Source of the DNA: an uncultured Nitrospiraceae bacterium
GTDB lineage: Bacteria; Nitrospirota; Thermodesulfovibrionia; Thermodesulfovibrionales; UBA9159
Assembly: GCA_964475485.1 (NCBI GenBank)
Contig: CAYYWY010000001.1
Location: 1 to 64,000, forward strand
Length of the DNA stretch: 64,000 nt
Reading direction: 5' to 3'
Position 1 is the first letter of the stretch. Each line of letters begins with the position of its first letter. Positions 45,901-48,900 of the stretch are shown one piece after another. Position numbers: made by a program.

Positions 45901-48900
45901 TAGTCACATCATCGTAGATACAGAATTCAACCAGTTGCAGACTCGATTCAGGGCTTTCCCTGAGATAATTCAACGCTTCCCTGACAAGTATCTCTGCACA
46001 CCTGTCTTTTGGAAAACCGAAGATCCCGGAACTTATGGCAGGCATGGAGACGCTTTTCAATCCCTTGCCTGATGCAAGCATAAGGCTATTAAGCACGGCG
46101 TTCTTGAGCTTGTTGTCCTCGTCTCCTTCGCCCATCCTCGGCCCGACGGCGTGTATAACGTACTTGCAGGGGAGTTTCCCTGCGCCCGTGACTGCGGCAT
46201 GACCCACAGGTACAAATCCTATCCTGTCGCTCTCCTCCTGAATGACACGACCCCCTTTCCTCACAATGGCCCCTGCAACGCCTCCGCCGTGCTGAAGATA
46301 CGAATTGGCGGCGTTCACTATGGCGTCCACGTCCCGTTCTGTTATGTCGCCCTGAATAAGGCGGAGGGTTTTTCCGTCTATCTTCTTCTCAACGACAGTT
46401 TTCACGTGGAATCCCCAACCTGCTGCCTTTCTCAAGAGATTGAACCTTGCTTTGTTTTCATGTTACAGGAAAACTGGTTCTTATACAAATGCGGTCCGGT
46501 ATGATAAAATAAACTAAAAAGCGGAGGATAGGATAGCGGTACTCTACGGAAACACATCAGGCCTTAAAGGAACAATTATTCATTCGCTTGAGAGGATATA
46601 CCGGAGACGGGTTCCTCAGGACAAGGTGATCACCCCTGAGCTGGCAAGGTATCTTGCGGAGCTTTCTTCGGAAACAGGCCGTCAGATCGGGGTGCTTGTC
46701 CCCAGGTCGGGCAATATTTCTCACGTCATCGTGGGAGACACGAAGGGCATCCTCATCCCGGAGCTCTCCGATTATCCCATCGGCAGGAAGGCATTGAGAG
46801 GCCTGAGGCTCATCCATACCCACCTCAAGGACGAACCTCTTAACCAGGATGACTTCACTGATCTTTCCCTGCTGAGGCTCGACCTCGTTACGGCCATTGG
46901 GATCCGAGATAGCCTGCCCCACAGGATATTCGTGGCCCATCTCATGCCGCCGGGTTCCGAAAAGCCTGTGGAGGTCTTCCCCCCCCAAGGATTTCACCAG
47001 TTCGACATGGACTTCCTCTCTTTTATCGGCTCGCTTGAGGAGGAGATGGAGAGGAAAAGGACATTCGACCAGAGGGACAGCAGGGAGAGAGCGATTCTCG
47101 TGAGTGTCTCAGCGAGGCCGAAACATGAGCTTGAGGACTCGATGGAGGAGCTCAGGGAACTTGCGCTGTCGAGCGGAGTTCTCGTACTTGACGGTGTAAT
47201 CCAGAGGCCGAAGGAGATAAACCCCAAATACCTCATGGGCGAGGGCAAGTTAAAAGAGCTCATCATCAATTCCATGAACAAGGGGGCTACCCTGCTCATA
47301 TTCGACCAGGACCTCAATCCTTCGCAGATGAAGGCCATCAGCGAACTTACCGAGCTGAAGGTGATCGACCGCTGCCAGCTCATCCTTGACGTTTTTGCGC
47401 AGCGTGCCCACAGCAGGGACGGCAAGGTCCAAGTGGAACTGGCACAGCTCAAATACAGACTTCCCAGGCTGACCGGAAAAGGGACCGCCATGTCTCGTCT
47501 CATGGGAGGAATCGGGGGAAGAGGTCCCGGAGAGATGAAACTTGAGATAGACAGGAGGCGCGTTCGCGAGAGGATAACACTGCTCGAAAGGGAACTCAGG
47601 TCGCTGTCGGAGGCCAGGAGACAGCGCAAGCAGAGGAGGGTCGCCACAGGTATTCCGATCGTATCCATCATCGGGTATACGAATGCAGGAAAATCGACGC
47701 TGCTGAATGCCCTTACGAAGAGCGAGACCTTTGTAGAGGATAAGCTCTTCGCGACACTGGATACCGCCAGCAGGAGACTCAGGTTTCCCAGAGAAAAAGA
47801 GGTCATCATCACCGACACCGTAGGGTTCATCAGGAACCTGCCGAAAGACCTGATGGCCGCCTTCAAATCGACCCTTGAGGAACTTGAGGACGCGGATCTT
47901 CTGGTACATCTCGTGGACGCATCGAATCCGAGGTTTGAACAGCATATCAATTCGGTCAAAGCCGTACTGGAAGAGCTTGGTCTGGCTGACAAACCGCAGC
48001 TTCTGGTCTTTAACAAGATCGACAGGCTTCCCGAAGAAGAGACGGAGAACCTGAAGATGAGGTTCAACGCCGTTGCCGTCTCGGCCCTTGATCCTTCCAC
48101 CTTCAAGTCTTTCATCGCAGCGATAGAGGCATATATCTGGGATGGCAAAATGGCCGGGGCAACGGTATAATAATTAGACCGTTGCCCGAATAGTCGTTCT
48201 CCGGCTCGACCGGGGAATCCAGGATGCATTGAAAGGAGAGGATTCCCGCCTTACCGCTTGGCAGGCGGGCATGGCGGACTTTACAGATGGAGTTCAAACC
48301 GAAATGGATAGCATGGGAAATAACAAGAAGATGCAATCTCAGGTGCGTTCACTGCCGTTCTGCCTCTGAGATGGAGATAAAGGACCATCCCGATTTTTCT
48401 ACCGGGGAGGCGTTCAGGATACTGGACAACATCGCGGATTATGCAAGGCCTGTTGTAGTGCTCTCAGGTGGGGAGCCCCTCATCAGGAAGGATGTCTTTG
48501 ATATCGCAAGGCATGGCACCGAGAAGGAACTGCGAATGTGTCTTGCGACCAACGGAACTCTTGTAAACGACGATGTCTGCAAGAATATAAAGGATTCGGG
48601 GATAAGGATCGTATCCCTCAGCCTGGATGGCTCAACAGAAGGGATCCATGACGATTTCAGGAGCCAGCAGGGGGCATTTGCCGGCACCATAAATGCAGCG
48701 AAGCTTTTCAGAAAGCACGGCATCGAATTCATCGTCAATTCATCCTTCACAAAAAGAAACCAGGAGGAAATACCGAAGGTATACAGGCTTGCCAAAGAAC
48801 TCGGCGCCACTGCATGGTACATGTTCATGATAGTGCCTACCGGAAGGGGTGAGGAGATTATGGACGAACTCATCTCCAGGGAGGATTATGAAGAAATCCT

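What a model noticed while it worked through the whole genome (the two positions that open the first line are those of the whole stretch)
46533..48170. hflX begins at an invariant non-canonical AUA start codon
The ribosome-splitting GTPase gene hflX starts 31 codons upstream of its called start, at ATA behind a Shine-Dalgarno sequence, with no ATG/GTG/TTG available. The ATA is kept across the order, suggesting IF3-sensitive translational control like infC, which also starts at ATA here.
Evidence so far: Homology with G007 extends to the ATA, and G007 has ATA at the same place. All 25 genomes searched match the extension; of 21 stretches read, 18 could be placed and 17 have ATA exactly four codons before the conserved [YFH]GN motif, 5-10 nt after GGAG/AGGA, several with an in-frame stop just upstream.
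(Added by a program. Inside this text positions count along the whole contig: contig position 1 is position 1 of the stretch shown here. "Call 12" and the like, gene names such as g00115 and contig names such as C1 are that model's own, and its searches are not shown. The text may have been shortened before it was handed on; [...] marks where a part breaks off. The agent that wrote the report below was given it as the finding of a first reader that could run no searches.)

Follow-up and report, generated by a model that had tools for sequence, protein, structure and literature searches.

The report
hflX starts at conserved non-AUG codon
In this bacterium and most sampled relatives from four phyla, the gene for the ribosome-splitting factor HflX has ATA, ATC or ATT (not always ATA) at the only fitting start position behind a ribosome-binding site, a conserved and presumably weak start that likely keeps HflX scarce and may tie its supply to the start-codon proofreader IF3, which is untested.

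Summary
Confirmed in substance; 'invariant AUA' is wrong. The window's only hflX has ATA at 46533, 5 nt behind GGAGG and 5 codons behind an in-frame stop. No ATG/GTG/TTG occurs before GTG 46626, 31 codons inside a conserved, confidently folded N-terminal region. Of 333 homologous loci, 270 have ATA/ATC/ATT there (90/89/91), 10 ACG/CTG, 49 a canonical codon and 4 are unresolved. In the window's order 55 of 59 have ATA/ATC/ATT, 39 of them ATA. The trait spans Nitrospirota, Desulfobacterota, Myxococcota and Acidobacteriota. The third base swaps often but ATA almost never becomes ATG, pointing to selection against a canonical start. It is not a genome-wide habit here. Best reading: a selected weak start, likely IF3-sensitive like infC. 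That step is inferred: hflX and infC starts do not always co-vary, and one in-vitro study found AUA barely IF3-sensitive. Some NCBI records already begin at this codon; I found no paper noting it. This scan found the same before on Myxococcota and other DNA. Side findings: the N-terminal region has a JAB/MPN-like fold with Gln at the catalytic Glu, and a yacP/rae1-like nuclease gene also starts at ATT/ATC across the order.

The parts
46482..46510 (+). Predicted sigma-70-type promoter (TATACA, 17 nt, TG-n-TAAAAT); would give a leader of about 15-16 nt
   Evidence: 1 site found against 0.5 +/- 0.6 in shuffles, so weak alone. A -10-like element lies 12-32 nt before the start in 36 of 55 order loci (no control computed).
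46515..46517 (+). In-frame TAA five codons before the start; rules out an upstream in-frame start
46523..46527 (+). Shine-Dalgarno core GGAGG
   Evidence: Duplex with the anti-SD -9.5 kcal/mol. A standard anti-SD was found in 3 of 4 relatives searched, not in the G000 assembly.
46533..46535 (+). ATA, the inferred start codon of hflX
   Evidence: The annotated ATG of Fusobacterium long-form HflX aligns with residue 3.
46533..46625 (+). 31 codons missed by an ATG/GTG/TTG caller; hold the conserved xGNxxGLK motif, a strand and a helix
   Evidence: G6, G10, L11 invariant in 59 diverse homologues; pLDDT 94-98
46533..47072 (+). N-terminal extra region (about 180 aa) with no Pfam match; predicted JAB/MPN-like fold, H95-x-H97...D107, Gln51 where Fusobacterium has Glu
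47088..48170 (+). HflX core: GTP-bdg_N, GTP-bdg_M and G domain; the protein ends 12 residues after the TIGR03156 match
46626..46628 (+). GTG, the mechanically called start; an internal Val codon with a weak SD
45863..46435 (-). Divergent macro-domain gene; hflX is not coupled to an upstream same-strand gene here

Best explanation
hflX has ATA at its only fitting start position, behind a Shine-Dalgarno sequence, and ATA, ATC or ATT holds that position in most long-form hflX genes sampled from four phyla; this is likely a selected weak start that keeps HflX scarce and likely makes its synthesis depend on IF3 proofreading, as for infC. Shown: the codon, SD, upstream stop, lack of canonical alternatives and conservation. 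Inferred with high confidence (about 0.97): fMet-tRNA initiates at this codon, so the full 545-aa protein is made. Inferred (about 0.9): selection acts against a canonical codon rather than for Ile or for ATA. Inferred from E. coli and Streptomyces work (about 0.55): IF3 on the 30S rejects most such initiation complexes. HflX output would then rise when free 30S outnumber IF3, or when immature 30S bind IF3 poorly. That would keep the 50S-side splitting and anti-association factor in step with the 30S-side one. The sign and size of this feedback are untested.
For: (1) 270 of 333 loci have AUH and 10 ACG/CTG. ACG and CTG show that Ile is not what is kept. (2) 202 of 280 non-canonical loci have no canonical codon between the upstream stop and the motif; 47 of 55 in the order. 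(3) SD of -8 kcal/mol or better at 78.5% of AUH starts against 7.8% of internal Ile codons. (4) Protein conservation starts at this codon; stop codons occur at every upstream position and at none downstream in 95 Nitrospirota loci. (5) Parsimony on a 333-tip tree: 66 swaps among ATA/ATC/ATT; from ATA, 12 transversions to ATC/ATT against 1 change to ATG, and that one at a shifted position. (6) Gene-specific: 14 ATH candidates among 2,273 modelled G000 genes against 1-11 for control codon sets, with hflX and infC among the 14. hemH and trpB starts switch within the order while hflX does not. (7) A second ribosome-acting gene, yacP/rae1-like, starts at ATT/ATC in 21 of 30 order loci. (8) In-frame stop within three codons upstream in 23 of 55 order loci, against 8 and 8 in the other frames; no such bias in 1,233 canonical G000 starts. 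(9) Literature: AUA/AUC/AUU initiate at 1-2% of AUG in E. coli (10.1101/063800, passages). IF3 represses non-canonical starts and infC* mutants raise them 3- to 15-fold (PMC5472188, passages). Immature 30S escape IF3 scrutiny (PMC6868393, abstract). HflX splits 70S and blocks subunit joining (PMC6912228, passages).
Against: No expression, ribosome-profiling or N-terminal peptide data. In E. coli extracts AUA mRNA gave 0.95 of AUG in rich-medium extract and was cut only 20-25% by 10-fold IF3 in minimal-medium extract, while ppGpp hit it hard (PMC5499595 sections 20 and 22). hflX and infC starts do not co-vary: infC is AUH in 6 of 7 placed genomes with canonical hflX, and looks canonical in 2 of 4 placed genomes with AUH hflX (11 of 15 fetched loci placed). 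49 of 333 loci use canonical codons, about 19 separate reversions, so the trait is dispensable. Metabolic genes of this genome also have AUH starts (hemH, trpB), and the yacP AUH start is absent from Desulfobacterota (24 of 25 readable loci canonical). If stress locks ribosomes into 70S/100S, free 30S fall and IF3 repression should tighten, the opposite of a rescue signal. Related genomes are not independent, most loci were the best-scoring hits, and 9 rows were corrected by hand.
Confidence: 0.55

Rival explanations
1. Fixed throttle: the non-canonical codon only keeps HflX low because excess splitting factor harms translation; any IF3 dependence is incidental.
For: Lineages that return to a canonical codon often show another likely brake. 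Their SD is weaker (median -6.0 against -9.5). In one clade hflX starts shortly behind a terminator-like hairpin after fabI (13 of 14 loci examined). Two loci look leaderless (L042, L065). No co-variation with infC. S. aureus hflX deletion improves viability at 47 C (PMC6912228, passage).
Against: A strong SD is kept in 98.9% of AUH loci (-5 kcal/mol or better), while losing the SD would be a simpler way to low output. The weaker SD of canonical loci may be only the ordinary background. The deepest conservation among the genes checked is in hflX and infC.
Confidence: 0.28
2. Nutrient gate: the AUH start makes hflX translation especially sensitive to ppGpp and limiting initiation capacity, shutting off the splitting factor in starvation so that hibernating ribosomes are spared.
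For: ppGpp inhibited AUU and AUA mRNAs most, and all non-AUG mRNAs lost activity in minimal-medium extracts (PMC5499595). HflX splits 100S particles (PMC6912228).
Against: In-vitro E. coli data from one study; nothing here bears on ppGpp in these phyla. In S. aureus, (p)ppGpp accumulation is linked to higher hflX expression.
Confidence: 0.09
3. Relaxed start fidelity and drift: these bacteria tolerate AUH starts, an ancestor fixed one in hflX, and it has simply persisted.
For: hemH, trpB, yacP and rplJ (CTG) also have non-canonical starts in G000. Reversions occur about 19 times.
Against: ATA is one transition from ATG, yet 12 transversions to ATC/ATT were inferred against 1 change to ATG. No clear genome-wide excess of ATH starts. 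Persistence across four phyla.
Confidence: 0.06
4. Not a start: the codon is an internal Ile, and the protein begins downstream (GTG 46626) or is reached by re-initiation or frameshifting from a short upstream ORF.
For: Some order loci carry a 3-codon ATG-GAG-xxx-stop frame overlapping the SD (e.g. L019, L025, L028). Many database proteins are called shorter or longer.
Against: The window and most loci have no such ATG. The upstream in-frame stop excludes an internal Ile. The missed 31 codons are conserved and fold with pLDDT 94-98. Canonical-start homologues begin within a few codons of the same place.
Confidence: 0.02

Closest known systems
infC (IF3) AUU/AUC start with translational autoregulation (E. 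coli, Streptomyces; PMC5472188, PMC5499595)
   Same: SD-led AUH start codon, conserved across lineages, in a gene whose product keeps ribosomal subunits apart. infC of this genome starts at ATA too.
   Different: HflX is not the proofreader, so this cannot be autoregulation in the strict sense. IF3 dependence is untested, and the two starts do not always co-vary.
Streptomyces sigR GTC start repressed by IF3 (PMC5472188)
   Same: A gene other than infC whose non-canonical start is conserved, mis-annotated and sets its protein level.
   Different: GTC, a sigma factor, experimentally shown, one bacterial group. hflX uses AUH (rarely ACG/CTG) across at least four phyla.
E. coli pcnB (AUU; 10.1101/063800 passages) and E. 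faecalis ebpA (ATT; PMC4447247, listing and abstract only)
   Same: Rare start codon that lowers expression.
   Different: Not ribosome factors. The 64-codon paper notes that pcnB start codons vary across phyla.
HflX/HflXr family (TIGR03156); Listeria hflXr leader attenuation (PMC9067457 passages); E. coli heat-shock promoter control (PMC6912228 passages)
   Same: Member of the family, with intact G motifs; known members are tightly regulated.
   Different: Extra N-terminal JAB-like region of about 180 aa and no room for a C-terminal domain. The predicted leader is only about 15 nt, too short for an attenuator, so control would lie in the start codon.

Membership tests
HflX GTPase (TIGR03156) | Score above the curated cut-off | tested here: met
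   446 bits against 216.75; only such match in G000
HflX GTPase (TIGR03156) | GTP-bdg_N, GTP-bdg_M and G domain with G1-G4 motifs | tested here: met
   Pfam PF13167, PF16360, PF01926; motifs at residues 381, 407, 428, 494 (motif identities recalled)
HflX GTPase (TIGR03156) | Splits 70S ribosomes | not testable with these tools
   Known for E. coli and S. aureus HflX; assumed here
infC-type IF3-controlled non-canonical start | Non-canonical codon at SD distance with no canonical alternative | tested here: met
infC-type IF3-controlled non-canonical start | Conserved as non-canonical across lineages | tested here: met
   280 of 333 loci
infC-type IF3-controlled non-canonical start | Translation falls with more IF3 and rises with infC* alleles | not testable with these tools
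   Needs reporters; published AUA data are mixed
infC-type IF3-controlled non-canonical start | The gene's own product is the repressor (autoregulation) | tested here: not met
   The product is HflX, not IF3. It may work like infC but is not an autoregulatory loop.
Genome-wide AUH initiation habit (as the scan noted for Lokiarchaeia) | Many SD-led ATH starts genome-wide, above control codons | tested here: not met
   14 ATH candidates against 1-11 for control codon sets among 2,273 modelled genes (crude own gene model)
JAMM/MPN+ metallo-hydrolase (N-terminal region) | JAB/MPN fold | tested here: inconclusive
   Best VIA match PfJAMM1 5ld9, Z 7.9, rmsd 3.2 over 111 residues; JAB/MPN proteins fill the top ranks. 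Z is under 8 and no Foldseek hit reaches E 0.001.
JAMM/MPN+ metallo-hydrolase (N-terminal region) | HxH...[S/T]xxD metal site (motif recalled) | tested here: met
   H95 in 321, H97 in 325, D107 in 327 of 333 loci; position 104 is T, S or N; spacing one residue shorter than in Fusobacterium
JAMM/MPN+ metallo-hydrolase (N-terminal region) | Catalytic Glu upstream of the metal site | tested here: not met
   Gln in 322 of 333 loci, Glu in 2; aligns with Glu of Fusobacterium HflX

The most novel reading that the evidence does not exclude
Across several phyla, bacteria wire ribosome quality-control genes into an IF3-read 'non-AUG regulon': infC, hflX and, in Thermodesulfovibrionales, a yacP/rae1-like nuclease. 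The start codon itself senses the balance of IF3 and free or immature 30S subunits and sets the supply of the 50S-side splitting factor. The hflX start would be the most deeply conserved non-canonical bacterial start after infC, ancestral to the Gln-type JAB-HflX clade.
Probability: 0.35. Interest if true: 0.8.

Novelty: new member of a known kind. Interest (0 to 1): 0.55.

Why it matters
Few bacterial genes have a documented non-canonical start (two confirmed in E. coli according to 10.1101/063800), and infC is the classic conserved case. A second gene of ribosome recycling that keeps an AUH start across four phyla gives a direct test of whether IF3 proofreading regulates ribosome homeostasis beyond itself. 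It also corrects annotation. Among 120 listed database homologues, 69 carry this codon as an internal Ile behind a spurious extension, 39 show no matching motif (mostly cut short), 3 start too late and 9 start at it. Anyone expressing these HflX proteins from the usual call would lose the conserved first strand and helix.

Tried and rejected
Sequencing runs: no RNA holder listed for 46200-48300, so no reads were laid. Viral contigs: no relative. Solved-structure search with alignment A1: nothing meaningful; Pfam has no model for the N-terminal region. RNA structure around the start: no better than shuffles (z 0.16), so no riboswitch or occluding hairpin is proposed. The 16S 3' end was not found in G000. 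The nearest-upstream-ORF tally was not used, because shadow frames make it unreliable. A single-sequence fold of the GTG-truncated region had not finished and is not used. YacP was not found above the cut-off in 41 genomes of G232's class. A second hflX copy that could explain reversions: none in 5 of 5 canonical-start genomes. Cyanobacteria and Bacillota carry related N-terminal regions according to the Atlas listing, but I had no handle to read their start codons. Literature searches that listed no paper on an hflX start codon (titles, abstract starts and term counts seen): searches (hflX, start codon, non-canonical; HflX, initiation codon, AUU, IF3), (hflX with ATC/ATT/ATA/AUA/AUU start codon; none of the 25 listed of 27 contains hflX). 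HflX with JAB: 0 papers; one search gave nothing on the long form. The library lacks most subscription journals and I opened no supplements, so start-site tables from proteomics or ribosome profiling could hold this site unseen.

Full report
WHAT IS IN THE WINDOW. The frame from 46518 to 48170 encodes HflX: TIGR03156 at 446 bits against a cut-off of 216.75, residues 186-533, and the only such gene in the genome. After the in-frame TAA at 46515 the codons read AAA GCG GAG GAT AGG ATA GCG GTA CTC TAC GGA AAC. The ATA at 46533 lies 5 nt behind GGAGG. The first ATG/GTG/TTG is GTG 46626, 31 codons on, with SD pairing of -4.0 kcal/mol against -9.5 for the ATA. A sigma-70-like promoter ends at 46510 (1 found, 0.5 expected, weak alone), and the upstream gene is divergent. 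The predicted leader is therefore about 15 nt, with no notable structure. Database names of the closest homologues point to Thermodesulfovibrionales, Nitrospirota.

IS IT THE START? The N-terminal 140 aa matched 146 of 151 genomes of the order and 187 of 201 of the phylum. I read the following loci: 61 from the order (30 best hits and 31 picked across families) and 49 other Nitrospirota (picked); the 30 best of 80 matches around a Geobacteraceae genome, the 30 best of 56 around a Polyangia genome and all 21 around a Pyrinomonadaceae genome (phyla named from those record titles); and the best 80 of 597 GTDB and best 80 of 575 metagenome hits. Dropping 14 duplicates, 2 contig edges and 2 unpublished genomes left 333. 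Starts were called by rule relative to the conserved xGNxxGL motif, and 9 rows were corrected by hand. Result: ATT 91, ATA 90, ATC 89, ACG 9, CTG 1, ATG 22, GTG 18, TTG 9, unresolved 4. AUH by group: order 55 of 59 (39 ATA), other Nitrospirota 42 of 49 (2 ATA), Desulfobacterota 25 of 30, Myxococcota 19 of 30, Acidobacteriota 14 of 20, GTDB scan 51 of 69, metagenomes 64 of 76.

Four tests say the codon is the start and not an internal Ile. First, 202 of 280 non-canonical loci have no canonical codon between the upstream in-frame stop and the motif. Second, 78.5% of AUH starts have SD pairing of -8 kcal/mol or better, against 7.8% of 3,574 internal Ile codons in the same genes (the anti-SD was recalled and then seen in 3 of 4 relatives). 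Third, in 95 Nitrospirota loci stops occur at every codon position upstream and none downstream, and residue conservation begins there. Fourth, homologues with canonical starts begin within a few codons of the same place, including the annotated ATG of Fusobacterium HflX, which aligns with residue 3. The model of residues 1-180 has mean pLDDT 96.4, with a strand at 4-6 and a helix at 13-24 that the GTG call would remove.

IS IT SELECTED? On a midpoint-rooted FastTree of 135 residues (a rough tree), parsimony puts a non-canonical codon at the root. It infers 66 swaps among ATA, ATC and ATT, about 19 gains of a canonical start and 1 return. From ATA, 12 changes go to ATC/ATT by transversion and 1 to ATG, at a shifted, leaderless-looking position (L042), although ATA to ATG is a single transition. 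ACG and CTG in a few lineages show that the amino acid is not what is kept. In the order an in-frame stop lies within three codons upstream in 23 of 55 loci against 8 and 8 in the other frames, with no such bias in 1,233 canonical G000 starts (165/184/135); this would block extension from an upstream ATG. Kin share these traits, so none of these counts is an independent statistical test.

IS IT A GENOME-WIDE HABIT? No. A crude gene model of G000 (2,273 genes) gave 14 SD-led ATH candidates against 1-11 for control codon sets. The credible ones are hflX, infC (ATA), trpB, hemH and a YacP-like NYN nuclease, plus rplJ at CTG. As controls, hemH clearly has AUH in 4 of 4 own-family loci of 30 read and mostly canonical or unclear starts elsewhere, and trpB has AUH in about 9 of 27 placed loci. 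The yacP/rae1-like gene has AUH in 21 of 30 order loci (2 ambiguous, 6 canonical, 1 unresolved) but is canonical in 24 of 25 readable Desulfobacterota loci. That YacP is the ribosome-associated nuclease Rae1 of B. subtilis is recalled, not from a call. So this order tolerates some AUH starts, and hflX is much more deeply conserved than those three.

HOW IT LIKELY WORKS. In E. coli AUA, AUC and AUU initiate at 1-2% of AUG (10.1101/063800, passages). IF3 destabilises such complexes, infC uses this for feedback, and sigR shows that another gene can be controlled the same way (PMC5472188, passages). IF3 is the anti-association factor of free 30S (PMC9067457, passages), and HflX splits 70S and blocks joining from the 50S side (PMC6912228, passages). 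I therefore take a strong SD plus a weak codon as a selected throttle that likely reads IF3 occupancy, so that HflX rises with IF3 when free or immature 30S are in excess (immature 30S escape IF3: PMC6868393, abstract). I put this at 0.55.

WHAT SPEAKS AGAINST IT. In one in-vitro study AUA mRNA translated at 0.95 of AUG in rich-medium extract and was barely touched by added IF3, while ppGpp inhibited it strongly (PMC5499595, abstract and sections 20, 22, 23). infC stays AUH in 6 of 7 placed genomes whose hflX is canonical, and looks canonical in G007 and G273, whose hflX is AUH (11 of 15 loci placed). Lineages with canonical starts have weaker SDs (median -6.0), and one clade sits just behind a terminator-like hairpin after fabI, which fits a plain need for low output. 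The sign of any feedback under stress is also unclear. A fixed throttle (0.28) is the main rival.

WHAT IS KNOWN. Three NCBI-named proteins identical to my loci already read this ATA or ATC as Met (P0041, P0051, P0083), and one picks a wrong ATC (P0034), so the site is in databases piecemeal. Most calls miss it. My searches listed no paper on an hflX start codon or on HflX with JAB; subscription journals and supplements were not seen. This scan noted the same start earlier in a Myxococcota genome and another bacterium, and a JAB domain on HflX in other genomes, several of them Bacillota. I tested the former independently on my own loci.

THE N-TERMINAL REGION. It has no Pfam model. JAB/MPN proteins fill the top ranks of the fold search (PfJAMM1 Z 7.9, rmsd 3.2 over 111 residues, covering residues 30-160), below the tool's Z 8 caution line, and Foldseek gives no hit at E 0.001. 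H95, H97 and D107 are kept in over 96% of 333 loci, but position 51 is Gln in 322, where Fusobacterium has Glu. It looks like a JAB domain and fails one defining JAMM feature. Whether the Gln form and the AUH start arose together is open.

VERDICT. A real, widely conserved non-canonical start, described too narrowly as invariant AUA. It is a new member of a known kind, with an inferred regulatory mechanism. Interest 0.55; 0.8 if an IF3-read set of ribosome quality-control genes is shown.

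Noticed in passing
window 46533-47072 (+): The extra N-terminal region of this HflX has a predicted JAB/MPN-like fold with HxH...D kept, but Gln at the Glu position in 322 of 333 loci. 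The Fusobacterium long form has Glu and an ATG start.
   Followed up: partly
window 53053 (+), hemH: Ferrochelatase has no in-frame ATG/GTG/TTG before its conserved first strand and probably starts at ATC behind GAGAGG, 19 codons before the called GTG 53110. AUH in 4 of 4 own-family loci, mostly canonical or unclear elsewhere.
   Followed up: yes
G000:C21:730-1236 (+) (L404): A YacP-like NYN nuclease gene starts at ATT; ATT/ATC in 21 of 30 order loci, canonical in Desulfobacterota. No earlier scan note held these words.
   Followed up: partly
G000:C18:39511-40698 (-) (L405): trpB probably starts at ATT behind GGAGGA; mixed AUH and canonical starts in the order.
   Followed up: partly
G000:C37:19825-20346 (-) (L406): rplJ (ribosomal protein L10) appears to start at CTG behind a strong SD.
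   Followed up: no
L136, L137, L140, L142, L152, L157, L176, L225, L239, L245, L246, L249, L269: In this clade (Desulfuromonadia by the titled records) hflX has a canonical start 70-110 nt after a fabI-like gene, with a terminator-like hairpin in between; it may depend on read-through (fabI recognised from memory).
   Followed up: partly
L244, L247, L252, L266, L159, L177, L147, L283, L286; L268/L317: ACG (9 loci, at least two lineages) and CTG (1 genome) take the start position behind an SD.
   Followed up: partly
L042 (G051), L065 (G170): hflX has ATG about 6 nt after a -10-like box and no SD, suggesting a switch to a leaderless message, another IF3-sensitive mode (recalled).
   Followed up: no
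L012 (G095), L048 (G032), L049 (G008): Start unresolved: ACA, AAA and AAG at the usual position. Nearby ACG, ATT or TTG are possible, as are assembly errors.
   Followed up: no
L403 (G007), L400 (G273): infC seems to start at TTG or ATG here, which would lose the classic autoregulation, while hflX keeps AUH.
   Followed up: no
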